From: Paraliomyxa miuraensis
GTDB taxonomy: Bacteria; Myxococcota_A; Polyangia; Nannocystales; Nannocystaceae
Length of the DNA: 57,014 nt
NCBI RefSeq assembly: GCF_026337845.1
Contig: NZ_JAOVZF010000146.1
Span: forward strand, 1 to 57,014
Reading direction: 5' to 3'
Every line of letters begins with the position of its first letter. The first letter of the stretch is position 1. The translations under genes were made by a program, and so were the position numbers. Below, in pieces: positions 34,095 to 48,400 of this stretch. The notes under the pieces are model-generated. The model was not told the DNA's origin. It saw nothing but the letters and a program-made list of their open reading frames with translations, and ran no database searches.

Positions 34095-34880
34095 CTAGAG
34101 CGGCCCCACCACCGCGGCCCAGAGCTCGAGCAGCACCCAGATCGCGCAGCAGGCCGCCGCCGCCTCGAGCAGCACGCGCCACAGCGGCCAGCGCTCGCGG
34201 TCCTCGTCGATGCGGATCACCAGCGGCAAGCCCACCAGGAAGTAGGCGGAGTAGCCCAGCGATCCGAAGCGCAGCATCTTGGCCTTGTCGGCGTAGGCGA
34301 AGTAGTCCGACAGGCCGTCGTTGGCCATGGCGAAGGTCTCCATCCATGCGATGCCGTAGCCGAGCACCAGCACCACGAGCACGCGACCGAGCCAGCCCCG
34401 GCCGACCGACCCGCCGAGCTTGCGCAGCGCGACGGGGGCGGCCACGAAGTAGGTCACGAAGTAGGCCTGCGTCAGCGGGTACATGAACACGGGGACCGTC
34501 TGCGACGAGCGCCCCATGTCGGCCTGCAGCGTCCACGTGACGGGAAAGCTGTAGCGCATGCCCATCAGGTCGAAGAAGTAGTGGGTGCCCACGTAGGTGC
34601 CGAAGAACACCAGCACGAACACCCATGCGTTGAGCTTGAACCACCAGCACTCCCAGACCGGCCGCCCGCGATCGGGACGACCCGGCCACAGCCACGGGCC
34701 CACGACCGCGGCTGCCCCGAGCGCGATCGAGAACAGCAGGTAGCCTCGGTCGCCCCAGGTGTGGATCCAGCCGGTGACGATCACCAGCGCGACCGCGAGC
34801 ATCCAGGCGGCGCTATAGCCCAGCAGCCAGCGCTCGGCCCAGGCCTTGTCGGGGTTGGGAGAGAACCAGGACGAGGCCAT
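34095..34880 (-). CDS. Integral membrane protein (261 aa, ~6 TM segments, Trp-rich). Unknown function.
   Basis: Start MASSWFSPNPDKAWAERWLLGYSAAWMLAVALVIVTGW. The ORF track's 790-aa version includes a long junk extension. Confidence 0.65.
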   Translation of the reverse strand: MASSWFSPNPDKAWAERWLLGYSAAWMLAVALVIVTGWIHTWGDRGYLLFSIALGAAAVVGPWLWPGRPDRGRPVWECWWFKLNAWVFVLVFFGTYVGTHYFFDLMGMRYSFPVTWTLQADMGRSSQTVPVFMYPLTQAYFVTYFVAAPVALRKLGGSVGRGWLGRVLVVLVLGYGIAWMETFAMANDGLSDYFAYADKAKMLRFGSLGYSAYFLVGLPLVIRIDEDRERWPLWRVLLEAAAACCAIWVLLELWAAVVGPL

Positions 34881-35201
34881 TGCGGGCCCGGATGGTATCA
34901 GCGCAGCGCGGAGCGCCCATGCCGAAAGCCCGTCCGTAGTTACGCCGTTTTTGCGTCGCCTGCGCGAGGTCGCTCGTACGCAAATGTCCGGGATCACCGT
35001 ACACGCATCTGCGGGTTGCCCCATCCGGACACTCCGAAACGGGACACATGGGGCGACGGCCTCAGACTCGACCGCACGTTGTCCGAGGCGTTGGTACACT
35101 CGCCCCTGAAACACCCCGTGGGTCGACCCCTTCGAGATACCGCCGCGACATCCGGTAGCACGAGCAACTTGCGAAGTGCAGGACCCGGAGATTTCGCAAC
35201 G

Positions 35202-38200
35202 ATGGTCGGGGCGATCCTCGAGCCGGGCTCCGTCGTGGCCGAGCGCTTCGAGGTGGGCGAGATCATCGACTCGGGCGGCATGGGCAGCGTCTACCGAGCC
35301 ACCGACCTGCTCGACGATCGACGCCCCATCGCGCTCAAGGTGATCCGGGACCAGCCTACACCTCACAGCTCGCAGACGGGCGAGCCTCCGGAGCCCGGAA
35401 CATCGCTCGACACCCAGCAGCTGCTCGACAGCTTCCAGCGCGAGGCGGAGCTGCTGGCCAACCTGCGGCACCCCTCGATCGTCCGCTACGTGCACCACGG
35501 CCGCACCAGTAGCGGGGCCCCCTACCTGGCCATGGAGTGGGTCGAGGGCGAGGACCTCAAGTCCAAGCTTCGTCGCGAGCCGCTGACGGTGGCCCAAACG
35601 CTGCGGCTCGGGCTGCGCCTGGCCGAAGGCCTGGCCGCCGCACACCGCGTGGGGGTGATCCACCGCGACATCAAGCCCAGCAACATCCTGCTGCCCGATG
35701 GCAACGTGGACCAGGCCAAGATCGCCGACTTCGGCATCGCGCAGTTCACTCAATTCGTGCTGATTCGGGGTGGTACGCCGGGCTACATGGCCCCGGAGCT
35801 GCACCTCGAGCGCTCGCAGATCGATGCTCGCGCCGATGTGTACTCGCTGGGCCTGCTGCTCACGCGCTGCCTGTCGACCACCGAGAGCCGCCCCAGCCTG
35901 CAGGGCAGCGAGGATCTCCCCACGGCCACGGTGGTCGAGAAGAGCAGCAGCGCCCAGGTCGTCGACGGCACCACGCTGGGGCTGTCGGTGCCCAACGAGC
36001 TCGACGAGCTGCTGCGCCGCATGCTGTCCACCGACCGCAGCCTGCGTCCGGCCCACGGCGGCGTGGTGGCCTCGCACCTGCAGGCGCTGGCCTCCCGCCT
36101 CGACCCGGACGACACGTCCGTGCTGTCGGCCCAGGAGAAGCAGCTGGTCGGGTTGATTCGGGTGGAGCTCGATCCCCGGGCGCATCCCTCCCGCGACGCC
36201 GTGGCCGAGGTGCTCTCGAAGTTCGGCGCCACCCAGCGCGTGCTGGGCCTGCTGAGCCTGGTCATCACGCTCGAGAGCCGGATCTCCGAGGGCGATCACA
36301 CCCTGCGCACGGCCCTGTGCGCGCTCGAGGTGCGCCGGGTATGCCCCACCGCTCGCCTCGCCCTGGTGTTGGGCCAGATTCCCCCACAAACGCAGCAGAG
36401 CCTGATCACCGCGGCGGAGCGGCTGCTCGACCAGGACGAGCCCACGTCCGACGACGAGGGCGAGCACCCCATCCTCATCGACCCTCGCGCAGCCAACCTG
36501 CTCGACGTGCGCTTCGACGTGGAGCGCACCGATGCGGTGTGTCGCCTGCTCCGACCTCGCCGCGAGCTCGCGGCCGGGCGCCTGCTGCTGGGCAAGCCGA
36601 GCCCCTGGGTGGGCCGCACCGGCGACGTGGACCGCCTGCTGCTCACCTACCTCGACGCGGTGGCGACTCGCCGCCCGCGGGCGGTGGTCATGCAGGCCGA
36701 GGCCGGCATGGGCAAGTCTCGCCTGGTCCAGGAGCTGCTCAGCGGGCTCGAAGCCAGCAACACGCCGCCGCTGGTGTGGATCGCTCGTGGCGACCCGGTG
36801 AGCGCAGGATCACCGTTCGCGCTGCTCGCCCAGCTCGTGCACGCGATGGCGGGAATCGCCGAGGGCGAGAGCATGGCGATCCGGCAGTCCAAGCTGCACC
36901 GCCGGCTCTCCGAGTACTTCCAGGGCACCGAGCTGCGACGCGTGGAGGCGTTCCTCGGCGAGCTCAGCCGCACCCCCTATCCCAACGAGTTCTGCTTGCC
37001 GCTGGTGATCGCGCGCCAGGACCCGCAGTACATGGCCGAGCAGACCCGGCGCGCGTGGGAGGATCTGATCGCGGTTGCGAGCTCCAAGCAGTCGCTGGTG
37101 ATCGTCCTCGACGACTGCCAGTGGGGCGACCTGGCCACGCTGCGCTACTTCGATCATGCGCTGCGCTCGACGGCCACGGGGGCGCTCACGCTGTTGGTGC
37201 TGGCCCGACCAGGCGCCTCTCCCTGGGCCGCGCTCGAGGGCACCCCGGGCTTCTCTCGCTTCCAGCTCGAGCGCCTGTCTGCGAGCGACTGCGCCGCGTT
37301 CCTCCAGGAGGTGCTCGGCGACGATCTCTCGCCCAAGCTCGTGCAGCGCATCATCGAGCGCGCCGCGGGCAACCCCCTGCTGCTCGAGGAGCTCGCCCGT
37401 GCGGTGGGCCAGCGCGGTGACGAGCAGTTCGGGGGCACCGAGGACACGATCTCGGCCCTGATGCACGCGAGGCTTCAGAGCCTGGGCTTCGACGCGCGCC
37501 AGATCCTGCGGGCCGGCAGCGTGTTCGGCCCGGTGTTCTGGCTCGATGGCGTGGTGGCGCTGCGCAAGCGGGGCTCGAGCGCGGCGCTGGTCCGCGAGTG
37601 GCTCGAGGAGCTCATCGATCAGGAGCTCGTCGTACGGCGCCCCACCTCGCGCTATCCCGGCGAGGAAGAGTACGAGTTCCACCACCTGTCGATCCGCGAT
37701 GCGGCCTACGGCATGCTCACCGAGGAGGACACGGTGGCCGCCCACCGCTCGGTGGCACGCTGGCTGAGCGAGCGCGGCGAGAGCAACAGCTACATCCTGG
37801 CCGAGCACTTCCGCCTGGGGCAGGAGCTCTCCGAGGCGGTCCGCTTCTACGTGGAGGCCGGACGACAGGCGTTCGCGCGCAACGAGTTCGAGGCGGTCCG
37901 CGAGATCACCGATCGTGCCCTGGCCTGTGCGGAGGGCGGCGAGCTGCAGGGCAGCGAGCTGCAGGGCAGCCTCGAGCTGCTGCGAGCCGAGACCGAAGCC
38001 TGCCTGGGTCGCCACGCGGAAGCCTCGCGCTTCGCGTTTCGGGCGATGGCGGATCTCACCGAGGGAACGCCATCGTGGCTGGCCGCGGCGGGCGAGGCCA
38101 GCCTGGCCAGCGCACGCATCGGCGAGCACGGCCGCGTGCTCGAGGTCATCGAGCACTTCGACGAGATGGACCTGGGTCTGTCGGGCGGAGGGGTGGAGCT

Positions 38201-39134
38201 GATGGGGATCATCCGCGCGGCGATCCCCCTGGCATCCACGGGCTTTGGAGGGACGGCGCTGGAGGTGCTGGACTCGGTCGAGCGCGCGCTGCAGGCCATC
38301 GCCGATCGCAATCCGGACGCCCGCGGCCCCTATCACTCCGCTCGCGCGCTGCGGGCCCTGTGCACGGGCGAGCTGGCGACCACGCTGTTCGAGCTCGAGG
38401 CGGCATCGCGAGAGTTCGAGTCCGCGGGGAGCCTGCGCACCGCCTGGGAGCACCGGGCGAGCGCGGGCTACACCTGCCTCGAACTCGGCATGCTGATGCG
38501 TGGCGAGGGGCTGCTCATGGAGGTCATCCGGACGACCGAGGGCGTGGGCCTGCACCACCTCAACGCGGTCGCCAAGCACAACCTCGGGCGTCGCCTCGCC
38601 GAGGTCGGACGCATCGACGAGGGACGTGCCCTCGAGCGCAGCGCGCTCAAGGCGTTCCAGAACCACGGCAATCGCCGCATGGAGGGCCTGACCCACGCCT
38701 TCCTCGGGCGCATCGCGCTCGAAGACGGCGATCCGCTCGAGGCCGAGCTCCACGCGCGGCGCGGCGTCGAGCTGCTCGAGCGCGAGTCGGGTTCGAAGAT
38801 CGTGGCGCTGTCGACGTTGGCCCAGGTGCTGCTCCACGTCGACCGGCCCCACGACGCCATGGTCTACGCGCAGCAGGCCTTCGATCAGCTCCAGCAGCTC
38901 GTGCTCGTGCACGAGGGCGAGTCGCTCACCCGCTTGGCCTATGCCGAGGCGCTGTGGGGCTGCGGAAGGCGAGAGCAGGCCCTGGCCGCCATCGCGGAGG
39001 CCCACGCCAACCTGCTCGAGCGCGCCGAGGATCTCGGCGCTGCGGACATGGTCAAGCGCGATTTCTTGCATCGAGTCAGCGAGAACGCAGCCATCCTGCA
39101 GCATGCCCAGGAATGGCCAAAGGCCCCCTCATGA
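35202..39134 (+). CDS. Ser/Thr protein kinase fused to an AAA/STAND-like NTPase and C-terminal TPR repeats (PknK/MalT-like architecture, 1310 aa)
   Basis: Kinase: IIDSGGMGSVYRA, IALKVI, VIHRDIKPSNILL, DFGIAQ, APE. P-loop: VMQAEAGMGKSRLVQEL. Walker B: LVIVLDDCQWGD. TPR-like C-terminus. Start MVGAILEPGS. Confidence 0.85.
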   Translation: MVGAILEPGSVVAERFEVGEIIDSGGMGSVYRATDLLDDRRPIALKVIRDQPTPHSSQTGEPPEPGTSLDTQQLLDSFQREAELLANLRHPSIVRYVHHGRTSSGAPYLAMEWVEGEDLKSKLRREPLTVAQTLRLGLRLAEGLAAAHRVGVIHRDIKPSNILLPDGNVDQAKIADFGIAQFTQFVLIRGGTPGYMAPELHLERSQIDARADVYSLGLLLTRCLSTTESRPSLQGSEDLPTATVVEKSSSAQVVDGTTLGLSVPNELDELLRRMLSTDRSLRPAHGGVVASHLQALASRLDPDDTSVLSAQEKQLVGLIRVELDPRAHPSRDAVAEVLSKFGATQRVLGLLSLVITLESRISEGDHTLRTALCALEVRRVCPTARLALVLGQIPPQTQQSLITAAERLLDQDEPTSDDEGEHPILIDPRAANLLDVRFDVERTDAVCRLLRPRRELAAGRLLLGKPSPWVGRTGDVDRLLLTYLDAVATRRPRAVVMQAEAGMGKSRLVQELLSGLEASNTPPLVWIARGDPVSAGSPFALLAQLVHAMAGIAEGESMAIRQSKLHRRLSEYFQGTELRRVEAFLGELSRTPYPNEFCLPLVIARQDPQYMAEQTRRAWEDLIAVASSKQSLVIVLDDCQWGDLATLRYFDHALRSTATGALTLLVLARPGASPWAALEGTPGFSRFQLERLSASDCAAFLQEVLGDDLSPKLVQRIIERAAGNPLLLEELARAVGQRGDEQFGGTEDTISALMHARLQSLGFDARQILRAGSVFGPVFWLDGVVALRKRGSSAALVREWLEELIDQELVVRRPTSRYPGEEEYEFHHLSIRDAAYGMLTEEDTVAAHRSVARWLSERGESNSYILAEHFRLGQELSEAVRFYVEAGRQAFARNEFEAVREITDRALACAEGGELQGSELQGSLELLRAETEACLGRHAEASRFAFRAMADLTEGTPSWLAAAGEASLASARIGEHGRVLEVIEHFDEMDLGLSGGGVELMGIIRAAIPLASTGFGGTALEVLDSVERALQAIADRNPDARGPYHSARALRALCTGELATTLFELEAASREFESAGSLRTAWEHRASAGYTCLELGMLMRGEGLLMEVIRTTEGVGLHHLNAVAKHNLGRRLAEVGRIDEGRALERSALKAFQNHGNRRMEGLTHAFLGRIALEDGDPLEAELHARRGVELLERESGSKIVALSTLAQVLLHVDRPHDAMVYAQQAFDQLQQLVLVHEGESLTRLAYAEALWGCGRREQALAAIAEAHANLLERAEDLGAADMVKRDFLHRVSENAAILQHAQEWPKAPS

Positions 39135-39847
39135 ACGACACCCAGGCTCCTCTCGACGTCTACACCTTTGGTCCGGCGTGGGACATTCCGGTGCTCACCG
39201 CGTCCCCCTTCGGAGTCAAGCTCATCACGTGGTTGCGGATGCAGGACCTGCCGCACCGGGTCCACGTGGAGAACAACCCGGGCAAGGGCCCCAAGGGCAA
39301 GTGCCCCTGGGTGATGGTCGATGGCCAGGCCCTCGGAGACTCGGAGATGGTGATCGAGACCATCAAGCAGCGTCGCGGCATCCGGACCGATACCGGGCTC
39401 ACGCCGCAGCAGCTCGCCCTCGCCACCGCGGTTCGCCTGATGCTCGAGGATCACTTCCACCAGGTGTGGGAGCACGAGCTGTTCATCTTCGACGGCGGCT
39501 GGAAGCGAGCCTACGAGTTCTTCGACCAGCTCCCGCCCGGCGTGCGGGTGCTGGTCCGCAACGTGGCCCGCTCGGCGCTGCGCAAGCAGCTCCATGCCCG
39601 CGGGGTGGGCCGCCACACGCACGAGCAGATCGTGCAGATGGGCATCGAGGATCTCGACGTCATCGAGACGCTGCTCGGCGACGGACCGTTCTTCTTCGGC
39701 GAAGAGCCCCGCGACATCGACGCCACGGTGTTCGGGTTCCTGTCGCTGACCTACTGGACCCCATCGGAGAGCCCGGTATGGGCGAACCTCCGCTCGCGCC
39801 GAGCGCTGTGCGACTACTGCGAGCGCATCCGAGAGCGGTACTATTAG
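39131..39847 (+). CDS. Glutathione S-transferase-family protein (thioredoxin-like N-terminal domain plus helical C-terminal domain)
   Basis: Its ATG overlaps the kinase stop (ATGA). N-terminus MNDTQAPLDVYTFGPAWDIPVLTASPFGVKLITWLRMQDLPHRV... resembles a GST/FAXC-like fold. 238 aa. Confidence 0.6.
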   Translation: MNDTQAPLDVYTFGPAWDIPVLTASPFGVKLITWLRMQDLPHRVHVENNPGKGPKGKCPWVMVDGQALGDSEMVIETIKQRRGIRTDTGLTPQQLALATAVRLMLEDHFHQVWEHELFIFDGGWKRAYEFFDQLPPGVRVLVRNVARSALRKQLHARGVGRHTHEQIVQMGIEDLDVIETLLGDGPFFFGEEPRDIDATVFGFLSLTYWTPSESPVWANLRSRRALCDYCERIRERYY

Positions 39848-39971: not shown

Positions 39972-40793
39972 TTACTTGGGGGTGGGTTCGTCGTCGTCGT
40001 CGGGGACGAGGATGCCGTAGACGGCGGCTTCGAGGCGGTTGGCGACCTCGGGGGTGACGACGTCGTGGGGCGAACGGAGGTAGCCGCCGATGGCGTTGAG
40101 CGCCGCGTCGCCAAAGCGCTTGAGGTAGCACTTGAGCTTCGCGTCCGAGTCCTTGAGGAACGCGAGGTCGGTCAGCATCATGTTGCGGACCGCGAGCAAG
40201 GGAATGGGGCTGCGCAGCGGCTTGAACTCCTGGTTGTGCAGCCCGGGCTTCTCGCACTCGGCGTGGAACTCCCCGATCATCAGCCCACGCTCGACGAAGG
40301 TCTGAGACAGGCTCAGCTGAACATCGTCCACCCACTCGCCCTCGAGGCTGGGGAACAACACCAGCATCGCCTTGAGCCCGGCCTTGGCGCCCATCCGGGG
40401 TGGCCGCGACTCGAAGTCCTTCATCGTCTGCATCATCACGGCGTTCATCGAGGGACGTGGATCGGCATCGAACACGTGACACACGGCGGAGTAGAGCAGG
40501 CCCTCGCGCATCGCCACCTGGGTGTACGGGCACACGTCGCCGCTGCGCCCCAGGTCCTCGTGGGTGCGACATAGATAGTCCACCGTCCAGCGTGCGACCT
40601 CACCGAGCACGCCAAGGTCCGAGGCGTCCACCTCGGTCAGCTCGATCGTCCCGCGGAGGGCTTGCAGCACCTCTCGGAGCGCGACGAACGGAGTCAGCGA
40701 GAAGTTGTCGACCACCGCTCCCCGAATCCCAGCGCAGATACGGTACCATGAGGTGATCGTGATCGAGCCCAGAGGTAGGGTCCTTGGCACCAC
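39972..40793 (-). CDS. Hypothetical protein (~270 aa). Start uncertain: candidate GTG starts at 40793 or 40715.
   Basis: The C-terminal two-thirds look coding-like (…MREGLLYSAVCHVFDADPRPSMNAVMMQTMKDFESRPP…EFHAECEKPGLHNQEFKPLRSPIPLLAVRNMMLTDLAFLKD…). The ORF track's N-terminal extension is junk. No family recognised. Confidence 0.45.
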   Translation of the reverse strand: MVPRTLPLGSITITSWYRICAGIRGAVVDNFSLTPFVALREVLQALRGTIELTEVDASDLGVLGEVARWTVDYLCRTHEDLGRSGDVCPYTQVAMREGLLYSAVCHVFDADPRPSMNAVMMQTMKDFESRPPRMGAKAGLKAMLVLFPSLEGEWVDDVQLSLSQTFVERGLMIGEFHAECEKPGLHNQEFKPLRSPIPLLAVRNMMLTDLAFLKDSDAKLKCYLKRFGDAALNAIGGYLRSPHDVVTPEVANRLEAAVYGILVPDDDDEPTPK

Positions 40794-40975
40794 CAGTCCG
40801 AGGCTGGACCACCTTCCTCGGGGGCTCTCGGGCGGCGAATCCAACGCGGTGGCCCGTGACGGGCCGGCGGTGTCCGAGAGGACTCGAACGCACACGTGAC
40901 TCCGGGGGCGGGGGATTCCCTGACCCCCCACGCTCTGCGGGGCCATGCGAAGATTTGGGGCTCGTGGACATCCAC

Positions 40976-42517
40976 ATGACCACCGACCCGTCCTCCCTTC
41001 CTCCTCGACGCACCCGCGTCCTCGTGATCGGCGGCGGCCCTGGCGGCTCCATGGCCGCGATCTTGCTCGCTCGCGAGGGCATGGAGGTCACGCTCCTCGA
41101 GCGCGACCAGTTCCCGCGCTACCACATCGGAGAGTCGCTGCTGACGTCGGCGATCCCGGTGCTCAAGTTCGTGGGGCTGTACGAGCGCATGGAAGCGCAC
41201 GGCTTCGTTCGCAAGCACGGGGGCTACTTCACGCTCAAGGAGGGGGCGCCTCCGGGCCACATCGACTTCCGCAAGGTCAGCGTCCACCAGCACTCCTATC
41301 AGGTGATCCGCTCGGAGTTCGATCACCTGCTGCTGCAGTACGCGGCCGAGATGGGCGCCCAGGTGTTCGAGCGAACCGCGGTCACCGGCGTCGACTTCGA
41401 GGGCGATCGACCGGTGCGTGCGCGCTGGCAGCAGCAGGGCGGCAGCAGCGGGGAGCTCGAGTTCGAGTACGTGATCGACGCCTCGGGCCTCTCGGGCCTG
41501 CTGTCGACCAAGGTGCTGCACAACCGCAAGTTCCAGCCCGCCTTCGCCAATGTGGCGGTGGGCAGCTACTGGAAGGGCTACGACGAGTACGTCGCGCCCG
41601 ACGGCACCCCGCAGGAGGGGCGCTTCTTCATGGAGGCGCTGCGGGACGGCTCGGGCTGGATCTGGGCGATCCCGCTGCACGACGGCACCATGAGCGTGGG
41701 CGTGGTGATGCATACGGACGAGTTCCAGCGCCTGCGCACCGCACTTCCGACCGAGGGGGCCGAAGGCGGGGCCGACGTGGAGGCGATCTACCGCCATGGC
41801 ATCGACAAGGCGCCGCACCTGCGCAACATGCTGGCCAAGGCCGAGATGACCAAGCCGGTCCAGACCTGGCGCGACTACTCGTACATCGCCGACACCTTCT
41901 CGGGACCGGGCTACCGGCTCGTGGGCGACGCGGCGGCGTTCATCGACCCGCTGTTCTCCACCGGGGTGCACCTGGCGTTCCTGGGAGCGGTCTCGGCGGC
42001 CGCGTCGATCGCGGGGCGGCTACGCGGAGAGCTCGACGAGGACGCGGCGATCGGGTTCCACGACCGCTGCATCCGCAAGGCGTACGTGAACTTCGCGATC
42101 ATCGTGTCGGGGATGTACAAGCAGATCCGGCGTCAGGACGAGGTGGTGCTGTACGGCATCGCACAGACGGACTTTCGCGCGGCCTTCGATGTGATCCTCC
42201 CGCTGATCTCGGGGAGCGCGGATCTCGAGGGGGATGCGGTGGATCCGAACACCATCGATCGGGCGGTGAGCTTTGCGATCGAGATGGTCAACGAGCGGGC
42301 GCAGCTCGGCACCGAAAATCCGGCGGCGCGGCTGCTCGTGAAGAAGGGGAGCGTGCACGAGGACCTCACGGCGGAGCCGGATCAAGCGGTGGGAGGGTGG
42401 TACATCCGCATGGAGCGGGGCCGGCTCGGCCTGGCGCAGGTGGTCGAGCAGGAGAAGATCGACAAGGAGAAGCAGCAGCTGACCAACGAGCTGCTGGAGG
42501 TGGCCCAGAGCAGCTAG
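40976..42517 (+). CDS. Flavin-dependent halogenase (tryptophan-halogenase family)
   Basis: VLVIGGGPGGSMAA (FAD GxGxxG), GSGWIWAIPLHDG (the WxWxIP motif characteristic of flavin-dependent halogenases), FIDPLFSTGVHLA (FxxPxxSxG). Start MTTDPSS. Confidence 0.8.
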   Translation: MTTDPSSLPPRRTRVLVIGGGPGGSMAAILLAREGMEVTLLERDQFPRYHIGESLLTSAIPVLKFVGLYERMEAHGFVRKHGGYFTLKEGAPPGHIDFRKVSVHQHSYQVIRSEFDHLLLQYAAEMGAQVFERTAVTGVDFEGDRPVRARWQQQGGSSGELEFEYVIDASGLSGLLSTKVLHNRKFQPAFANVAVGSYWKGYDEYVAPDGTPQEGRFFMEALRDGSGWIWAIPLHDGTMSVGVVMHTDEFQRLRTALPTEGAEGGADVEAIYRHGIDKAPHLRNMLAKAEMTKPVQTWRDYSYIADTFSGPGYRLVGDAAAFIDPLFSTGVHLAFLGAVSAAASIAGRLRGELDEDAAIGFHDRCIRKAYVNFAIIVSGMYKQIRRQDEVVLYGIAQTDFRAAFDVILPLISGSADLEGDAVDPNTIDRAVSFAIEMVNERAQLGTENPAARLLVKKGSVHEDLTAEPDQAVGGWYIRMERGRLGLAQVVEQEKIDKEKQQLTNELLEVAQSS

Positions 42518-42559: not shown

Positions 42560-44089
42560 CTACTGGCGCCGCAGGTGGCGCTTGACCGCCCCCAGCAAGC
42601 TGCGGGCGTCGAAGGGCTTGGGGAGGAACTCGCTGATGCCCAATGCCTTGACCTCCTTGGTCCGGGCGGGGTCGGTGTGGCCCGAGACGATGACGACGGG
42701 GAGGTCGCATTCGAAGGAGCGGAGGACCTTGAGCACCTCGGCGCCGTCGATGCGGGGCATGTCGAGGTCGAGCACGATGAGGCGCAGCTCGGCGGCTCGC
42801 TCGGCGTAGCGGCGAAGGGCCTCGGCACCATCGGTGGCGGTGACCACGTCGGCTCCGTCGCGTGACAGCACGCGCGTGATGGCGGTGCGTACGAGCGGGT
42901 CGTCGTCGGCCACCAGCACCAGGCCGGTGATGCCACCGCTCATCGAGAGCTCGGGGCGCGGACCCACGAACGTGCTCTCGCGCGCGCTCTCGGCCGAGGG
43001 CAGGTGGATGATGAACTCGGTGCCCTTGCCCACCTCGCTGCGGGCCTCGATGCTGCCGTTGTGATCGCGCAGGATCGCCTGCACGGTGGCCAGGCCCAGG
43101 CCCGTGCCCTGCCCGCGCGGCTTGGTGGTGAAGAACGGCTCGAAGATCCGCGCCAGGGTCACCGGATCGATGCCCAGGCCCGTGTCGGCGAAGGTGACTC
43201 GCACGTAGGGACCGGGCTGGAGCTGCTTGGTCTCCTGGGTCACCTCGACCGCGTCGGCCGAGATGGTCAGCGTGCCGCCGCGAGGCATGGCGTCCTTGGC
43301 ATTGATGCAGAGGTTCATCGCCACCTGCAGCAAGCGCGAGGTGTCGCCGATGACCAGCAGATCGTCGGGGATCTCGGTGGTGATCGCCACGTTGCGCGGC
43401 AACGTACGGCGCAGCAGGTCCACGCCCTCCCGGATCAGCTCGTGGAGGCGGATCGAGCGGTGCTCGGAGGTCGTGCGCCGACCAAACCCCGACAGCTGCC
43501 GCGTGAGATCGATGGCGCGGCGCACCGCGGCCTCCATCTCCTCGAGGCACTGCGCGGTCTCGGTGTCGTGGTGCTTGGTGCCGAGGAAGGTGACGTTGGC
43601 GAACAGCGCCCCGAGGATGTTGTTGAAGTCGTGCGCCACCCCTCCCGCGAGCTGCCCGAGCGCCTGCATCTTCTGGGCGACCAGGAGGTGGTCTTCGAAG
43701 CGCTCGCGCCGGGCCAGGGCCAGCACGGTCTGCTCGCCCAGCGCGATCTCGTCGCCGAACTCGAGCACGGCCTCCTTGACGCGGTGCCCGTTGACGCGAA
43801 CCCCGTTGCGACTGTCGAGGTCGCGCACGTAGTAGTGGCCGTCGGTGTTGCGCCCCACCAGGGCGTGGCGTCGGGAGATGCCCTGATCGGAGACGATCGC
43901 GTCGCAGTCCTTGCCGCGACCGAGCACCACGTCGCCTTCGAGGTAGATGCGTCGGCCGGGATCGTCACCCGCGAGGATGACCAGACAATCGGCCGCCTCG
44001 GCTCGCGGGTCGATCGGAAACCGATGCATCGAGGTTCGCGTGTGCTCCTCGACCGAGTCGTAGCGCCTATAGTTCTCGCGGGGGGCCAT
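42560..44089 (-). CDS. FHA-domain hybrid sensor histidine kinase (FHA, HisKA, HATPase, then a C-terminal receiver)
   Basis: FHA: [31 protein letters not shown]...[15 protein letters not shown]. HisKA: [13 protein letters not shown]. HATPase: DTGLGI...GTGLGLA. Receiver: [10 protein letters not shown]...LDLDMP...KP. The start is ambiguous: Met at 44089 or 44029. Confidence 0.8.
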
Positions 44090-44275
44090 GGACGACGCCG
44101 CAGACCAAGCTCCCGTGGATGATAGCAAGCAGCGCCGGCTCGCCACGGCTCGGGATGCGCGCCAAGTCGCCGAGCGCCCAAGCGGCCCAAGAAGGGTCAC
44201 GAAAGGGGACGCTGGGCCGGTGCGGGGTGAGCGGACGTCGAAGGCCCCGCCCGCGGCTCAGGGGAGCCCCTAGCC

Positions 44276-45217: not shown

Positions 45218-45494
45218 GAGCGGGTTTTATGCCAGCGTCCGCAGCACCGTCCATGCCACCCTGCGAGGGGCCGATGCTGGTGCGGTTGGGATGACGGTGA
45301 TCATGGTCCGGAATTTCGTGATACAAATCACTTTACATGGTTCACGACGGGCTCTGCTCCGAATGTCGCCGCTGGGCGGCAAGAACCGCGTCCACGGAGG
45401 GCTTGCACCAAGGAGCCCCGGATGAAGGGTCGATCGCGCTCCCTTGGATTCCTGGAAATCGAAGACCATTGCTCCGCGAGGGTCCCGTCGGGAA

Positions 45495-48400
45495 ATGAGC
45501 TCCAAGCCCATCGTCGTGCCGCGAGTGCGACGGCTCTACCGAGGGCCATCTGCGACGGCGGATGGCCCGACCGCGGCTTACCCGGTCATTCCCGTGGTCC
45601 CCGGCTACCGGATCCTCGGGCACGTCGCATCGGGGGGCATGGGCAACGTGTATGCGGCCACGTCGCTGCGGACCCATCGCAAGGTCGCGCTCAAGCTCGT
45701 TCGTCCGGAGAACCACACCCCGGCGACCGCCGAGCGGATCCTGCGAGAGGTCCGTGCGCTGTCGGGGCTCTCCCATCCGGGGATCGTCGAGTACGTGGAC
45801 CACGGGACCACGCCCGAAGGGATCCCCTACCTGGCGATGGAGTGGCTCGATGGCGTGGACCTCGACGATCGGCTCCATCACGGGCCGCTGTCGATCGATG
45901 ATGCGCTGGCGCTGGCCGTTCGGGTGGCCGAGGCCCTCGCCGCCGCGCACGAGCACGGCGTCATCCATCGCGACATCAAGCCCAGCAACATCTTCCTGGT
46001 GGGGGGGCGCCCCTCCGACGCGCGCTTGCTCGACTTCGGCGTGGCGCGGCTGCTGACGCACACGTGGACGCTCACCCTCCCCGGCAAGGTGATCGGGACC
46101 CCGGACTACATGTCCCCGGAGCAGGCCAGGGGGGCCCCCGATCTCGATCCTCGCGCCGATCTGTTCTCGCTGGGCTGCGTGCTGCACGAATGCCTGTGCG
46201 GAGAGCCAGCGTTCGTGGGCGAGCACGTGATGGCGGTGCTCGCCAAGGTGCTCATGGAGAACCCGCCCCGGCTCGGGCGCCTGGTGCCGGAGATCCCCGT
46301 GGTGCTCGAGGAGATCGTCGCCCGGCTGCTCGAGAAGGATCGCGAGCGCCGCATCGGCAACGCCCGCGAGCTCGCGCAGCGCCTGCGCAGCCTGGTCGAC
46401 GGCAACGACGAGCCGCTCGAGCTGATCTCCGAGGCGCTGACGCAGGACGAGCAGGTACTGTGCTCGGTGCTGTTCTTCCGCGGTCGCTCCGAGGACGTGG
46501 CCGACCCCATCGATCTCACCGAGCTCGCCAAGGAGCACCTGGGGCACGACCACACGCTCGTCGACGGGACTCGCCTCATCGTGATGGATTGCGGCGGCGC
46601 GGCCTCCGATCAGGCCGCCACCACGGCCCGCTGTGCGCTCGCCCTGCGCGAGCGTGCGCCTCACTATGCGATCGCGGTGGCCTCCGGCCACGGCATCGTC
46701 ACGGGCCGCTCCATCATGGGGCAGGTCCTCGACCGCGGCGCCGATCTGCTGCTGCGCGGGCGACCGGGCAACATCTGCATCGACGACGTGACGGCGAGCC
46801 TGCTCGATCCCAGCTTCGAGGTGGCCGATGGCACCTCCGGGCTGACCCTGGTCGCGGTCCGCGACACGCAATCGGGCACCCGGCGCCTGCTGGGCAAGAA
46901 GACGCCGCTGGTCGGACGACGTGGCGAGCTCGCACACCTCGAGGCCGTGTTTGCCGAGTGCTGCGAGGAGCTGTGCGCGGCCGCGGTCCTGATGATCGGC
47001 AACGCGGGTGCGGGCAAGTCCCGGCTGCGCCACGAACTCGACGCCCGCCTCCGATCGCACCCCGGACAACCGGTGACCACCTTCCTCGGTCGCGCCGATC
47101 CGATGCGGACCCAGGCGCCGCTGTCGTTGATGTCCCGGGTGCTCTGCGGCGCGGCGAGCCTCGAGGACGGCGAGCCCACGGCCATTCGGCAGCACAAGCT
47201 GCGGACTCGGATCGCGCGCCACGTGGGCCGCGAAGAGATCGAGCGCGTCACCCTGTATCTGGGCGAGCTCGTCTCTGCCTACGGCAACGACGCCCCGCTC
47301 GAGCTACGACTGGCCCGCGAGGACTCCGCCTCGCTGCGCGCCCGAATCCGCGAAGCCTGGGTCACCTGGCTGCGGGCCGAGAGCAACGCGAGCCCGGTCT
47401 TGTTCGTGCTCGAGGATCTGCACTGGGCCGACGCCGCGACCGTGCAGCTGATGGACACGCTGCTCGAGCAGCTGGAGGGCCAGCCGATCCTGGTCCTGGC
47501 GCTGGCTCGGCCCACCGTGCACGACCTCTTCCCCGAGCTGTGGAAGCATCGCGACGTGGAGACCCTCGAGCTCTCGCCGCTGGCGCCCCGGGCGGCCCGC
47601 AAGCTCGTCCACGAGGTGCTCGGGGACACGGTCGAGCACCACGACGTGGAGCGGATCGTCAAGGGAGCCGGCGGCAACGCGTTCTTCCTCGAGGAGCTGA
47701 TCCGCGCGGTCGCCGATGGCTCGGGCGGCGAGCTGCCCGACTCCGTTCTGGGCATGATGCAGGCGCGGCTCGGCTCGCTGACCAGCTTCGAGCGCAAGGT
47801 GCTCCGCGCCGCCAGCGTGTTCGGCGAGACCGCATGGCAGGGAGGCATCCGCGAGCTGCTGGGACGCGATGCCGACGTGGAGGCGCTCGGACCCACGCTG
47901 ATGCGCCTGGCCAACGAAGAATGGCTGACCCCTCGCCCACGCTCGCAGATCCCCTGTGACTACGAGTACACGTTTCGGCACGCGCTGGTGTGCGACGCGG
48001 CCTACGCCACCCTGACCGACGCCGATCGGCGCGTGGGCCATCGCCTGGCGGGGCGCTGGCTGGAGCGCGCGGGGGGCCAGGAAGCGGTGGTGCTCGCCGA
48101 GCACTTCTTGCGCGGAGAGGATCATCCCAAGGCCACCGAGTGGTTCGCGACGGCAGCCGACCAGGCGTTCGAGCGGCACGAATTCGACGTGGTGCTCCAG
48201 CTCGTCGAGCGGGGTCAGCGGCATGCCGTGCCCGGTGAGGCTCGGGGGCGGTTGCTGCTGCGCCGGACCGAGCTCCATGCGATCTCGGGCCGCCATCAGG
48301 AGGCCGTGGAAGCGGCCATGGCCGCGCTCGAGGAGCTCCCCCTGGGCAGCGCCCGCTGGTACAGCGCCGCCGGGGAGGCTGCGCTCGCGATGAGCCGCAC

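What the first reader, a model, noticed from the sequence alone, without database searches (positions are those of the whole stretch)
40976..42517. Orphan flavin-dependent halogenase with no biosynthetic context
The WxWxIP (GWIWAIP) and FxxPxxSxG motifs plus an N-terminal FAD fold define a tryptophan-halogenase-family enzyme. No PKS/NRPS, carrier protein, flavin reductase or transporter is nearby. The neighbours are a GST-family protein, a hypothetical and signalling proteins. It also has an unusual charged coiled-coil-like C-terminal tail (EQEKIDKEKQQLTNELLEVAQSS). It could halogenate a free small molecule or act with the GST in a xenobiotic or signalling pathway.
Basis: partly seen in the sequence, partly recalled or inferred. 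Interest (0 to 1): 0.5.

Follow-up and report, generated by a model that had tools for sequence, protein, structure and literature searches.

The report
Phenol-type halogenase paired with P422 haem enzyme
The gene is a real, intact flavin-dependent halogenase of the RadH (phenol-halogenating) type, not a tryptophan halogenase, and its "hypothetical" neighbour is a newly described haem enzyme that hydroxylates tryptophan, so the two probably make a halogenated hydroxy-indole compound that nobody has yet seen.

Summary
Window 40976..42517 (+) encodes a 513-aa flavin-dependent halogenase (FDH) with GGGPGG, catalytic K80, WIWAIP and FIDPLFSTG. It is 100% identical to a Paraliomyxa miuraensis protein annotated as "tryptophan 7-halogenase". 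That name is wrong at subfamily level. The best solved relative by sequence and by fold is fungal RadH, a free-phenol halogenase, followed by FasV, CndH and CmlS. No tryptophan halogenase is among the hits. The three residues essential in RadH (K74, D325, F328) are invariant in 120 homologues. No PKS, NRPS, carrier protein or reductase lies within -41/+14.5 kb. It is not MiuG, the known miuraenamide brominase.

The gene is not context-free, though. The divergent "hypothetical" at 39972..40715 (-) is a DUF6875 protein. A 2025 preprint characterised this family as "cytochrome P422", thiolate-haem hydroxylases of free tryptophan. The P422|FDH pair recurs in six related Nannocystaceae contigs despite local rearrangements. 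More distant FDH orthologues sit beside type III PKS genes.

Best reading (about 0.45): a two-enzyme module in which P422 hydroxylates an indole and the FDH halogenates it. The charged C-terminal tail exists across the bacterial family; only its acidity is clade-specific. This is a new member of a known kind, of moderate interest.

The parts
40976..42517 (+). Flavin-dependent halogenase gene (513 aa), RadH-like phenol type. Annotated in GenBank as 'tryptophan 7-halogenase'.
   Evidence: ORF and translation. 100% identical to P0001. Pfam PF04820 E 1.9e-30. Best PDB sequence hit is RadH 8gu0, E 2e-97. Best fold hit is RadH, E 1.2e-44, TM 0.82.
41030..41047 (+). GGGPGG (residues 19-24), the FAD-binding GxGxxG motif.
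   Evidence: Motif search. The glycines are invariant wherever the column is occupied, in 114 of 123 sequences; the other 9 are gapped there.
41213..41215 (+). Codon of K80, the catalytic lysine (aligns with RadH K74).
   Evidence: HMMER alignment to RadH. Lys in 123 of 123 sequences. RadH K74 is essential (PMC10377541).
41657..41674 (+). WIWAIP (228-233), the WxWxIP halogenase signature.
   Evidence: W228, W230 and P233 are invariant in 123 sequences.
41939..41965 (+). FIDPLFSTG (322-330), the FxxPxxSxG motif. It contains D324 and F327, which align with RadH D325 and F328.
   Evidence: [quoted passage not shown]
42434..42514 (+). C-terminal tail (residues 487-513) after the RGRLGL motif. It is predicted to be a single helix, and is acidic in this clade.
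   Evidence: Alignment A1. Tail statistics: net charge -2.3 in the P422-linked clade against +3.9 in other bacterial homologues. AF2 predicts a helix at 492-512, at low confidence.
39972..40715 (-). Cytochrome P422 / DUF6875 gene (247 aa, GTG start), transcribed divergently from the halogenase. It is a putative thiolate-haem indole/tryptophan hydroxylase.
   Evidence: Pfam PF21780 E 3.7e-55. 100% identical to P0121. Motifs present: RSGDVC62P, MIGEF (146-150) and RNMMLTDLAF (177-186). In SBR2, DDVQ133LSLS137 lacks the Lys (motif definitions). AF2 model pLDDT 93.
40716..40975 (.). 260-bp divergent intergenic region between the P422 and FDH genes. It contains the conserved element GGGGATTCCCTGACCCCCCA at 40911..40930.
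   Evidence: Sequence. Alignment with the same region of L092, L093 and L094. No ABM gene or remnant is present here. No sigma-70-like promoter was found.
39131..39847 (+). GST-family gene (GST_N_4/Tom37/GST_C_6 type). It is a conserved neighbour but is coupled to the upstream kinase, so probably not part of the module.
   Evidence: tblastn with the L081 and L085 GSTs. ATGA overlap with the kinase stop codon. The Pfam family names come from the homologues.
42560..44200 (-). FHA-HisKA-HATPase-REC hybrid kinase, convergent with the halogenase. It is a conserved neighbour with no demonstrated functional link.
   Evidence: Pfam. Synteny in L001, L081, L083, L093 and L094. In the sister subclade a small FHA protein overlaps the FDH stop codon.

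Best explanation
Shown. The gene encodes an intact two-component flavin-dependent halogenase of the RadH-like, phenol-directed class, which acts on free substrates.

From established FDH chemistry. The enzyme takes FADH2 from a separate flavin reductase, which is not encoded nearby. FADH2 reacts with O2 to give the flavin hydroperoxide. The WxWxIP strand keeps the organic substrate away from this intermediate. Halide attack then gives HOCl or HOBr, which travels to K80. There it halogenates an electron-rich aromatic ring bound near D324 and F327. In RadH-type enzymes the halogen goes ortho to a ring hydroxyl.

Inferred. In P. miuraensis and its marine Nannocystaceae relatives, the halogenase works with the divergently transcribed cytochrome P422 (DUF6875). 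This is a thiolate-haem enzyme whose family hydroxylates the indole ring of free tryptophan. P422, fed by housekeeping ferredoxin and ferredoxin reductase, would hydroxylate an indole compound. That compound could be tryptophan, or, because this clade lacks the carboxylate-anchoring Lys, possibly a derivative without a free carboxylate. The resulting hydroxy-indole would be the phenol-like substrate that the FDH chlorinates or brominates. The product would be a small, soluble halogenated hydroxy-indole metabolite, made outside any PKS/NRPS cluster. In some relatives an ABM-fold protein is co-translated with the FDH and may process the product further.
For: FDH identity and integrity:
- Motifs and Pfam match.
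- K80, D324, F327 and WxWxIP are invariant in 120 homologues plus RadH, CmlS and FasV.
- These correspond to RadH K74, D325 and F328, which are essential for activity.

Class:
- PDB sequence scores: RadH 330 bits, then CmlS 203, FasV (8zop) 200, CndH 182, PltA 146.
- Fold search gives the same leading hits (RadH, then FasV, CndH and CmlS) and no Trp halogenase in the top 50.
- 41.8% identity to RadH.
- In an NJ tree, RadH is basal to the bacterial family.

Free substrate:
- No carrier protein or adenylation domain in any of more than 10 orthologous loci.
- The RadH-like C-terminal RGxLGL segment is conserved. In RadH it fills the groove where CndH docks its carrier protein.

P422 neighbour:
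- PF21780 at 3.7e-55.
- The haem motif RxGxVCP and the substrate 'clamp' motifs are present.
- The family hydroxylates free L-Trp at N1, C6 or C7, and in thienodolin biosynthesis works alongside a halogenase.
- ZigI, another family member, hydroxylates an indole intermediate.

Linkage:
- P422|FDH adjacency was verified in the window, L081, L083, L092, L093 and L094. FDH identity across these ranges from 68 to 93%.
- The pair persists despite ABM gain or loss, relocation of a 716-aa gene and a 3-gene insertion nearby.
- Seven further contigs are inferred to carry both genes, from matching contig lengths.
- In L096 the P422 gene stays within 6 kb after an inversion.
- In L085 the P422 slot is instead occupied by a PrnB-like protein (PrnB is another haem enzyme acting on tryptophan), a flavoenzyme and a methyltransferase.

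Chemical plausibility:
- RadH halogenates ortho to the OH group on bicyclic hydroxy-heteroaromatics, including 7-hydroxybenzothiophene, an isostere of 7-hydroxyindole.

Tail:
- The tail is acidic and soluble in the P422-linked clade, but basic and amphipathic in clades linked to lipid-making type III PKSs.
Against: - All P422|FDH loci come from one family-level lineage, so the conserved adjacency could simply be inherited synteny. The same loci also keep the kinase, GST and FHA genes.
- No P422 was found next to RadH-like FDHs outside this lineage. None of the 80 genome loci had one.
- Distant orthologues point to a different substrate class, type III PKS phenolic lipids.
- If this P422 is an N1-hydroxylase, as many cyanobacterial relatives are, no phenolic OH would be made.
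- The SBR2 Lys that anchors the tryptophan carboxylate is replaced by Ser or Ala, so tryptophan itself may not be the substrate.
- No halogenated indole is known from this strain. The genome paper reports no distinct metabolites other than miuraenamides.
- No enzyme activity was tested.
Confidence: 0.45

Rival explanations
1. The halogenase stands alone and acts on some other free phenolic compound, endogenous or taken up from outside. Its proximity to P422, the GST, the kinases and the FHA proteins is inherited gene order with no shared pathway.
For: - All the conserved loci belong to one Nannocystaceae lineage, and unrelated genes (STK, GST, FHA-HK, a 313-aa hypothetical) are just as syntenic.
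- Other family members are true orphans with no biosynthetic neighbours: L086/L004, L005, L006 and L007.
- RadH-type enzymes are promiscuous towards phenols.
- The gene is monocistronic here, with a convergent gene 42 bp downstream.
Against: - The P422|FDH core survives rearrangements that move or insert other neighbours.
- Where P422 is missing, as in L085, a PrnB-like protein occupies the slot; PrnB is itself a tryptophan-directed haem enzyme.
- P422 enzymes and halogenases already co-occur in a characterised pathway, thienodolin.
Confidence: 0.25
2. It keeps the ancestral role seen in distant orthologues. It would halogenate a type III PKS-derived phenolic lipid (an alkylresorcinol or acylphloroglucinol, comparable to DIF-1 or the proposed salimabromide route) made by genes elsewhere in the genome.
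For: - A type III PKS lies directly upstream of orthologues in three independent lineages. These are L002/L087, L003 (T1PKS-T3PKS-methyltransferase-sulfotransferase-FDH) and L088 (T1PKS-T3PKS-FDH).
- Dictyostelium ChlA chlorinates a Steely type III PKS product.
- In Enhygromyxa salina, also a Nannocystaceae member, a PKS III cluster adjacent to a halogenase is reported and linked to salimabromide.
Against: - No type III PKS lies in the 57-kb window.
- The published strict antiSMASH run on the draft genome lists no T3PKS region.
- The basic amphipathic tail of the T3PKS-linked clades is replaced here by an acidic one.
- None of the Nannocystaceae-clade loci examined carries a T3PKS.
Confidence: 0.12
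3. The order is reversed, as in thienodolin biosynthesis. The FDH first halogenates tryptophan or an indole directly, consistent with its database name, and P422 then oxidises the halo-indole.
For: - In thienodolin biosynthesis 6-chloro-tryptophan comes first and the P422 enzyme ThnD acts later.
- PGAP names the protein 'tryptophan 7-halogenase'.
- In L085 a PrnB-like gene is nearby. From background knowledge, not tested here, PrnB uses 7-chloro-tryptophan.
Against: - No solved tryptophan halogenase matches at E <= 1e-5 by sequence or appears in the top 50 fold hits. All close relatives act on phenols, pyrroles or polyketides.
- The PGAP name comes from the generic Pfam family name.
- The best NCBIfam model is CmlS, at 239 bits, far below its cut-off of 900, so no curated equivalog applies.
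Confidence: 0.1
4. It is not a halogenase in vivo. It would instead be a flavin mono-oxygenase or a peptidyl-tryptophan-modifying maturase like QhpG, LodB or GoxB.
For: The NCBIfam models for QhpG (155 bits), LodB (101 bits) and GoxB (79 bits) give secondary hits.
Against: - All these scores are far below their cut-offs and below the CmlS score.
- The halogenase-specific Lys and WxWxIP motif are strictly conserved.
- No quinoprotein precursor gene is nearby.
Confidence: 0.04

Closest known systems
RadH / Rdc2 (fungal radicicol halogenases; PDB 8GU0)
   Same: - Best sequence hit (E 2e-97, 41.8% identity over 428 positions) and best fold hit (E 1.2e-44).
- Shares GxGxxG, the catalytic Lys, WxWxIP and FxxPxxSxG, together with the essential Asp and Phe.
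- Shares the C-terminal ...R/HGxLGL segment.
- RadH acts on free phenolic substrates, halogenating ortho to the OH group.
   Different: - Bacterial rather than fungal.
- Lacks RadH's unique omega loop (Y138-P154; gap).
- Carries an extra 27-aa helical tail after the RGxLGL motif.
- Is not next to a polyketide synthase.
- RadH branches outside the whole bacterial family.
ChlA of Dictyostelium (DIF-1 chlorinase) and the bacterial orthologues linked to type III PKSs (L087, L003, L088)
   Same: The bacterial T3PKS-linked proteins belong to the same orthologous family, at 48-52% identity with full-length alignment and the same tail position. They show the same logic as ChlA: a type III PKS phenol, then an FDH.
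   Different: - The window gene has no type III PKS partner nearby, nor any in the published antiSMASH survey.
- Its tail is acidic rather than basic.
- The ChlA sequence itself was not compared here; the resemblance rests on the literature and on gene-cluster logic.
FasV (8ZOP), CndH (3E1T), CmlS (3I3L), PltA, Mpy16, Bmp2 (bacterial phenol/pyrrole FDHs)
   Same: Same fold and motifs. These are the next-best hits after RadH (E 1e-58 to 1e-36 by sequence; E 1e-33 to 1e-28 by fold).
   Different: - Only 24-38% identical.
- CndH, PltA, Mpy16 and Bmp2 act on carrier-tethered substrates inside PKS/NRPS clusters. No carrier protein exists here.
- The CmlS equivalog model scores 239 bits against a cut-off of 900.
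PrnA / RebH / PyrH tryptophan halogenases (the source of the database name)
   Same: Same Pfam superfamily (PF04820) and the same general FADH2/HOCl/Lys mechanism.
   Different: None appears among PDB sequence hits at E <= 1e-5 or in the top 50 fold hits. The annotation 'tryptophan 7-halogenase' is a generic family label, not a functional assignment.
Thienodolin pathway: cytochrome P422 ThnD/ThdM plus a tryptophan 6-halogenase
   Same: This is the only characterised pathway found here in which a DUF6875/P422 haem enzyme and a flavin-dependent halogenase act on the same indole scaffold.
   Different: - There the halogenase is a canonical Trp 6-halogenase and acts first. The P422 enzyme then forms a C-S bond inside a multi-gene cluster.
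- Here the halogenase is phenol-type, the module has two genes (three with ABM in relatives), and the P422 lacks the carboxylate-binding Lys.
MiuG (miuraenamide tyrosine brominase of the same organism)
   Same: Same organism, and it also acts on a free aromatic amino acid.
   Different: According to the miuraenamide paper, MiuG's closest MIBiG homologue is the brominase Bmp5, and it lies inside the 85.9-kb miu PKS/NRPS cluster. The window holds no PKS or NRPS gene, so this is a different and additional halogenase.

Membership tests
Flavin-dependent halogenase (PF04820 superfamily) | N-terminal GxGxxG FAD-binding motif | tested here: met
   GGGPGG at residues 19-24. The glycines are invariant wherever the column is occupied.
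Flavin-dependent halogenase (PF04820 superfamily) | WxWxIP motif, which separates halogenases from flavin mono-oxygenases | tested here: met
   WIWAIP at 228-233. W, W and P are invariant in 123 sequences.
Flavin-dependent halogenase (PF04820 superfamily) | Catalytic lysine that holds or relays HOX | tested here: met
   K80 aligns with RadH K74 and with the aligned Lys of CmlS and FasV. Lys in 123 of 123 sequences.
Flavin-dependent halogenase (PF04820 superfamily) | FxxPxxSxG motif | tested here: met
   FIDPLFSTG at 322-330.
Flavin-dependent halogenase (PF04820 superfamily) | Profile score above the curated threshold | tested here: met
   106.6 bits against a cut-off of 21.
Flavin-dependent halogenase (PF04820 superfamily) | Halide- and FADH2-dependent C-H halogenation activity | not testable with these tools
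   Needs an enzyme assay.
Tryptophan 7-halogenase (PrnA/RebH type), the GenBank name | Closest similarity to characterised tryptophan halogenases | tested here: not met
   No Trp halogenase among 22 PDB sequence hits at E <= 1e-5 or in the top 50 Foldseek hits. No NCBIfam equivalog cut-off is reached.
Tryptophan 7-halogenase (PrnA/RebH type), the GenBank name | Large C-terminal helical substrate-binding module that covers the active site | tested here: inconclusive
   The AF2 model is of low confidence for residues 391-470. [quoted passage not shown]
RadH/Rdc2-type free-phenol halogenases | Residues shown to be essential in RadH (K74, D325, F328) | tested here: met
   K80, D324 and F327 are present and invariant in the family.
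RadH/Rdc2-type free-phenol halogenases | RadH as nearest characterised relative by sequence and by fold | tested here: met
   E 2e-97 and 330 bits. Foldseek E 1.2e-44, TM 0.82.
RadH/Rdc2-type free-phenol halogenases | RadH-specific omega loop (Y138-P154) | tested here: not met
   The loop is absent: the query has gaps opposite this insertion (loop defined). It is described as unique to RadH, so it is not a family requirement.
RadH/Rdc2-type free-phenol halogenases | Location in a polyketide (resorcylic acid lactone) cluster | tested here: not met
   No PKS in the window.
Carrier-protein-dependent ('variant B') halogenases (CndH/PltA type) | Partner carrier protein or adenylation enzyme encoded nearby | tested here: not met
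   No PP-binding or AMP-binding hit in the window or in orthologous loci. There are no free gaps between 34.5 and 49.4 kb.
Cytochrome P422 / DUF6875 (the neighbour at 39972..40715) | PF21780 domain | tested here: met
   187 bits against a cut-off of 24.5, E 3.7e-55.
Cytochrome P422 / DUF6875 (the neighbour at 39972..40715) | Haem-binding region RxGxVCP with the axial Cys | tested here: met
   R57-S-G-D-V-C62-P. Invariant in 33 homologues. Motif definition.
Cytochrome P422 / DUF6875 (the neighbour at 39972..40715) | Indole 'clamp': SBR1 Rx(M/L)x3Dx2F and SBR3 MxGxF | tested here: met
   R177-N-M-MLT-D183-LA-F186 and M146-I-G-E-F150.
Cytochrome P422 / DUF6875 (the neighbour at 39972..40715) | SBR2 Dx2(Q/H)x3K, which anchors the tryptophan carboxylate | tested here: not met
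   D130-D-V-Q133-L-S-L-S137: the Gln is present but the Lys is replaced by Ser. It is Ser or Ala in all nine Nannocystaceae sequences and Ala in L096, against Lys in all the others.
Cytochrome P422 / DUF6875 (the neighbour at 39972..40715) | b-type haem binding with a 422-nm CO-difference band; hydroxylase activity | not testable with these tools
   Needs spectroscopy and an assay. The Mc170 structure is not in the PDB copy; the best fold hit has E 0.011.

The most novel reading that the evidence does not exclude
Marine Nannocystaceae carry a conserved minimal pathway of two enzymes (three with ABM in some relatives) that lies outside any classical gene cluster. A cytochrome P422 subclade has lost the carboxylate-anchoring Lys, so it may act on a non-amino-acid indole. 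It would hydroxylate the indole, and a RadH-type halogenase would then chlorinate or brominate the resulting hydroxy-indole. The product would be a soluble halogenated indole metabolite, possibly a signal, given that the module always sits among Ser/Thr-kinase, FHA and histidine-kinase genes and that the FDH is translationally coupled to an FHA protein in the sister subclade. This would be the first phenol-type FDH assigned to hydroxy-indoles and a new partnership for the P422 family.
Probability: 0.3. Interest if true: 0.6.

Novelty: new member of a known kind. Interest (0 to 1): 0.4.

Why it matters
The enzyme itself is an ordinary member of a well-known family, and orphan halogenases are common. 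Three things still make the result useful.

1. It corrects a misleading public annotation. The protein is labelled "tryptophan 7-halogenase", and the same or similar generic names appear on several homologues.

2. This turns an "orphan" into a concrete, cheaply testable two-gene hypothesis: hydroxylate, then halogenate an indole.

3. It defines a bacterial sister family of fungal RadH, whose members would be candidate biocatalysts. Their context splits between type III PKS phenolic-lipid clusters (an arrangement like that for DIF-1, including one in a Myxococcaceae genome) and the P422 module.

If the module is real, it would give enzymatic access to halogenated hydroxy-indoles. It would also point to an unseen metabolite in a producer strain that is hard to culture.

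Tried and rejected
- **Is it MiuG, the known miuraenamide brominase?** Rejected. MiuG's closest MIBiG homologue is Bmp5, and it sits inside the miu PKS/NRPS cluster.
- **ABM gene or remnant upstream of the FDH in the window.** None by tblastn. Relatives L092, L093 and L094 also lack it, so this is a natural variant rather than a frameshift.
- **Type III PKS, PrnB-like gene or the 716-aa flavoprotein/membrane gene of relatives in the window.** No hits.
- **Extending the view beyond the window with the look-up of encoding contigs.** The P. miuraensis assembly is not in that index. The published antiSMASH table was used instead. All NRPS/PKS regions have coordinates above 246,804 bp, so they lie on longer contigs than the one carrying the FDH. 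Terpene, RiPP or 'other' regions on the FDH contig could not be excluded, because contig names could not be matched.
- **Genome-wide locus scan with the FDH alignment.** It returned mostly distant CmlS-like FDHs and only 7 orthologous loci.
- **Metagenome scan with the P422 protein.** Only 3 loci, all carrying the FDH.
- **PDB sequence and fold searches for P422.** No significant match. This fits the preprint's claim of a new fold but gives no independent confirmation.
- **Rfam scan of 39-45.5 kb.** Nothing.
- **Promoter and terminator scan.** No sigma-70-like promoter. The one terminator-like hairpin lies inside the FDH coding tail on the opposite strand, and one hit is no more than chance.
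- **AF2 model of the FDH.** The C-terminal 120 residues are too low in confidence to say how the tail packs.
- **GST as a functional partner.** Rejected on operon structure.
- **Orthology of the FHA domains.** The small FHA proteins of the sister subclade are only 25-32% identical to the FHA region of the window kinase, or show no hit at all. The recurring FHA adjacency is therefore not simple orthology.


Full report
**1. The observation**

The window has about 70% G+C, so open frames abound. I accepted genes only where third-position GC was high. The frame at 40976..42517 (+) has GC3 0.89 and translates to 513 residues. It is identical over its full length to an NCBI protein of Paraliomyxa miuraensis, carried on a 246,804-bp contig and annotated 'tryptophan 7-halogenase'. 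Pfam Trp_halogenase scores 106.6 bits against a cut-off of 21.

**2. What kind of halogenase**

- *Sequence against all PDB chains.* The best hit is the fungal radicicol halogenase RadH (8GU0; E 2e-97, 330 bits, residues 10-445). Next come CmlS (203 bits), 8ZOP (200; named FasV), CndH (182), Mpy16, ChlB4, PltA and Bmp2. CtcP and PltM are marginal. No PrnA/RebH/PyrH-type tryptophan halogenase reaches E 1e-5.
- *Fold.* An AlphaFold model (pLDDT 77; core confident, residues 391-470 poor) gives the same leading hits by Foldseek: RadH E 1.2e-44 with TM 0.82, then FasV, CndH, CmlS, Bmp2, Mpy16 and PltA. No tryptophan halogenase is in the top 50.
- *Curated families.* The best NCBIfam model is the CmlS equivalog, at 239 bits against a cut-off of 900, so no curated equivalog applies.
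- *Active-site residues.* The RadH structure paper lists K74, D325 and F328 as essential (PMC10377541). In the HMMER alignment these correspond to K80, D324 and F327 here. I aligned the 120 best database homologues with RadH, CmlS and FasV fragments. K80, W228, W230, P233, D324, P325, S328 and G330 are invariant in all 123 sequences, and F327 in 122.
Identity to RadH is 41.8% over 428 positions. RadH's unique omega loop (Y138-P154) is absent (gap). The GenBank name reflects the generic Pfam family name, not the subfamily.

**3. Free or carrier-tethered substrate**

RadH acts on free phenols and hydroxy-heteroaromatics, halogenating ortho to the hydroxyl. Its C-terminus fills the groove where CndH is thought to dock a carrier protein. 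The corresponding segment (GWYIRMERGRLGL here, GFMPRLEHGHLGL in RadH) is conserved across the bacterial family. No PP-binding or AMP-binding protein is encoded in the window or in any orthologous locus examined. Between 34.5 and 49.4 kb the gaps between genes are 260 bp or less. A free substrate is therefore the best-supported reading.

**4. The tail**

After RGxLGL, most bacterial homologues in which the motif could be located carry a further 26-31 residues. Here these are predicted to be one helix (492-512), at low confidence. In the clade containing the window protein the tail is acidic (mean net charge -2.3, Kyte-Doolittle -0.68). In the remaining homologues it is basic and more hydrophobic (+3.9, 0.0). 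The tail is thus a family feature, and only its chemistry is clade-specific. It is tempting to relate the basic amphipathic version to lipidic substrates and the acidic one to soluble substrates, but that is inference only.

**5. Genomic context in the window**

Pfam scans of about 40 GC3-supported ORFs found the following:
- housekeeping genes: a glycosyltransferase family 4 (MraY-like) protein, a metallo-beta-lactamase-fold protein, an S46 peptidase, an aminotransferase, RNase T, a PLP-dependent enzyme, an RNA ligase, an ECF sigma factor, an EF-Tu-like GTPase, an M20 peptidase and a geranylgeranyl-reductase-like flavoprotein;
- signalling genes: three Ser/Thr kinases, two of them carrying an AAA_16 ATPase domain (STK-AAA_16), and a hybrid histidine kinase with an FHA domain and a receiver domain (FHA-HK-REC);
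- no PKS, NRPS, carrier protein, flavin reductase, ferredoxin or transporter.

The GST-family gene (39131..39847) overlaps the stop codon of the upstream kinase by ATGA and converges on the next gene. It is not co-transcribed with the halogenase. The halogenase is monocistronic, with the histidine kinase converging 42 bp downstream.

The organism's known halogenase, MiuG, is a different enzyme. Its closest MIBiG homologue is Bmp5, and it lies in the 85.9-kb miu cluster (PMC10051162). I could not read beyond the window, because the assembly is not in the contig index. However, the published antiSMASH table for this genome places every NRPS/PKS region at coordinates above 246,804 bp. Those regions are therefore on contigs longer than the one carrying this gene. 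The table lists no type III PKS anywhere (PMC9960870; contig length).

**6. The 'hypothetical' neighbour**

The divergent gene at 39972..40715 (-) encodes 247 aa from a GTG start and is identical to P0121. It is a DUF6875 protein (PF21780, E 3.7e-55).

A full-text search found that this family was characterised in December 2025 as 'cytochrome P422' (bioRxiv 10.64898/2025.12.11.692455). These are thiolate-ligated b-haem enzymes with a new fold. With ferredoxin and ferredoxin reductase they hydroxylate free L-tryptophan at N1, C6 or C7. In the case of ThnD/ThdM they form the C-S bond of thienodolin, starting from a 6-chlorotryptophan-derived intermediate. A 2026 paper assigns indole C7-hydroxylation to another member, ZigI (PMC13307353).

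The preprint defines four motifs, and the window protein compares as follows:

| Motif | Definition | Window protein | Result |
|---|---|---|---|
| Haem-binding region (HBR) | RxGxVCP | R57-S-G-D-V-C62-P | present |
| SBR1 | Rx(M/L)x3Dx2F | R177...D183..F186 | present |
| SBR3 | MxGxF | M146-I-G-E-F150 | present |
| SBR2 | Dx2(Q/H)x3K | D130-D-V-Q133-L-S-L-S137 | Lys replaced by Ser |

The Lys of SBR2 salt-bridges the tryptophan carboxylate. It is Ser or Ala in all nine Nannocystaceae sequences of my alignment and Ala in L096. Every actinobacterial and cyanobacterial homologue keeps the Lys. The AlphaFold model is confident (pLDDT 93) but has no significant PDB neighbour. That agrees with a novel fold whose structure has not yet been released.

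In Streptomyces, a 43%-identical homologue sits between a kynurenine-monooxygenase-like flavoenzyme and an NRPS. This again places the family in aromatic amino-acid chemistry.

**7. Is the pairing conserved?**

- *Verified adjacency.* P422 lies divergent from the FDH in the window, in L081 (FDH 79% identical), L083 (68%), L092 (about 93% over the part of the FDH present), L093 (70%) and L094 (69%).
This is a proxy, not a proof.
- *Changes around the core pair.* L081 and L083 insert a 97-aa ABM-fold gene that overlaps the FDH start by 4 bp. A 716-aa flavoprotein/membrane gene lies downstream of the FDH in L081 but upstream of P422 in L083. L083 also has three extra genes between the GST and that 716-aa gene.
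- *Sister subclade (FDH 60-64% identical).*
  - L096 has inverted the kinase-GST-P422 block, leaving a divergent P422 (37% identical) 6 kb away.
  - L095 keeps ABM-FDH, but the contig ends 4.5 kb upstream.
  - L085 lacks P422. In the same neighbourhood it carries a PrnB-like gene, a FAD-binding mono-oxygenase and a methyltransferase.
  - In all three, a 177-181-aa FHA protein follows the FDH. In L085 and L096 it overlaps the FDH stop codon.
- *Phylogeny.* An NJ tree of 120 homologues shows the Nannocystaceae clade as monophyletic, with the P422-linked loci in one subclade.
- *Caveat.* All these loci belong to one lineage, and unrelated genes (kinase, GST, FHA proteins) are just as syntenic. 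The conservation is suggestive but does not prove a shared pathway. None of 80 genome loci of more distant FDHs holds a DUF6875 gene.

**8. What more distant orthologues do**

At 48-54% identity the same family occurs in three independent lineages immediately downstream of a type III PKS:
- L002/L087, with a methyltransferase, UbiA and radical-SAM genes;
- L003, a type I PKS - type III PKS - ICMT methyltransferase - sulfotransferase - FDH operon;
- L088, from a Myxococcaceae MAG, with a 2095-aa type I PKS - type III PKS - FDH.

This matches the logic of Dictyostelium Steely plus ChlA for DIF-1 (PMC9489281). It also matches the PKS III cluster adjacent to a halogenase reported in Enhygromyxa salina and linked there to salimabromide (PMC4902002). 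Other members are true orphans (L086/L004, L005, L006, L007). The ancestral or commonest role of the family therefore seems to be halogenation of free phenols made by type III PKSs. The Nannocystaceae clade has lost that partner and sits beside P422 instead.

**9. Mechanism proposed**

*Shown.* The gene encodes an intact FDH of the RadH class, with a P422-family neighbour that carries its haem ligand and indole clamp.

*From established knowledge of FDHs.* FADH2 comes from a separate reductase. The flavin hydroperoxide reacts with halide to give HOX, which is guided to the Lys. The Lys then delivers it for electrophilic substitution of an activated ring.

*Inferred.* P422 hydroxylates an indole ring. 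The substrate may be tryptophan or, given the missing Lys, perhaps a derivative without a free carboxylate. The hydroxy-indole then serves as the phenol-like substrate of the FDH. RadH accepts hydroxyquinolines and 7-hydroxybenzothiophene and halogenates ortho to the OH group, which makes this step chemically plausible.

I put this at about 0.45. The rivals are:
- inherited synteny with an unrelated phenolic substrate (0.25);
- a type III PKS product made elsewhere in the genome (0.12);
- reversed order, with direct indole halogenation first as in thienodolin (0.10);
- not a halogenase at all (0.04).

The regiochemistry, the halide preference and the true substrate are unknown.

**10. Novelty and verdict**

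The enzyme is a new member of a known kind: an uncharacterised bacterial sister family of RadH. Orphan FDHs are common, and nothing in the protein departs from the family. What lifts the finding above the routine is the conserved pairing with a haem enzyme family described only months ago. That pairing turns an 'orphan' into a specific hypothesis that can be tested with two genes. The analysis also corrects the public annotation. Interest 0.4.

Noticed in passing
L088:520-9512 (Myxococcaceae MAG JAFGNZ010000163.1): An operon of a 2095-aa type I PKS (KS-AT-DH-ER-...), a type III PKS and an FDH orthologue (49% identical). It is a split bacterial counterpart of the Dictyostelium Steely plus ChlA route to the chlorinated morphogen DIF-1, found in another social, fruiting-body-forming lineage.
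   Followed up: partly
L003:854-9482 (MAG labelled 'Synechococcus', 48% GC): A five-gene operon: type I PKS (KS-AT-ACP-TE), type III PKS, ICMT-type methyltransferase, sulfotransferase and FDH. It predicts a chlorinated, methylated and sulfated phenolic lipid.
   Followed up: partly
L085:2487-5781: In one Nannocystaceae relative that lacks the P422 gene, a PrnB-like protein (PF08933), a FAD_binding_3 mono-oxygenase and a methyltransferase form an operon. It sits between the GST and the kinase next to the FDH orthologue, so a second type of tryptophan-directed haem enzyme occupies the same neighbourhood.
   Followed up: partly
L081:9711-10004, L083:9711-10004, L095:4290-4586, L096:9603-9944: A 97-113-aa ABM-fold (antibiotic biosynthesis monooxygenase) gene sits immediately upstream of the FDH in several relatives, with a 4-bp overlap in L081 and L083. 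It is absent from the window and from L092, L093, L094 and L085. Its role is unknown.
   Followed up: partly
L085:11533-12066, L095:6104-6649, L096:11449-11982; window 42560..44200: An FHA-domain protein always follows the FDH. In the sister subclade it is a small FHA protein, which overlaps the FDH stop codon in L085 and L096. In the window clade it is a convergent FHA-histidine-kinase-receiver hybrid. The FHA domains are only 25-32% identical or show no hit, so this is a recurrent association rather than simple orthology.
   Followed up: partly
window 39972..40715 and alignment A2: The whole Nannocystaceae subclade of cytochrome P422 has Ser or Ala in place of the SBR2 Lys. That Lys anchors the tryptophan carboxylate in characterised members, so the change hints at a different substrate.
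   Followed up: partly
L089:4471-13833 and L090:1277-12823 (Streptomyces): A DUF6875/P422 gene overlaps the end of a kynurenine-3-monooxygenase-like flavoenzyme gene. It is flanked by an A-PCP didomain gene and a multi-module NRPS with an O-methyltransferase. This is an uncharacterised NRPS cluster that probably uses a hydroxylated tryptophan or kynurenine unit.
   Followed up: no
window 31539..32012: A tandem array of a 69-bp unit, about 7 copies at 86-94% identity, lies in the 1.4-kb gap between the EF-Tu-like GTPase gene and a 556-aa hypothetical gene. The period is a multiple of three, and on the minus strand it reads as a 23-aa repeat (...RPYTVGSVPKxDGLAGADAGVAS...).
   Followed up: no
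window 40911..40930: The element GGGGATTCCCTGACCCCCCA lies in the divergent P422/FDH intergenic region. It is conserved in L092 and largely in L093. It may be a regulatory or promoter element of a non-sigma-70 type.
   Followed up: no
window 34581..39134 and 45444..49409: Two paralogous giant Ser/Thr kinases with AAA_16 ATPase domains (1517 and 1321 aa) bracket the locus. The first is translationally coupled (ATGA overlap) to the GST-family gene, an arrangement conserved in the relatives.
   Followed up: no
window 40976..42517 (public annotation): PGAP names this protein, and several of its homologues, 'tryptophan 7-halogenase'. No tryptophan halogenase is among their close characterised relatives, so this appears to be a naming artefact that comes from the Pfam family title.
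   Followed up: yes
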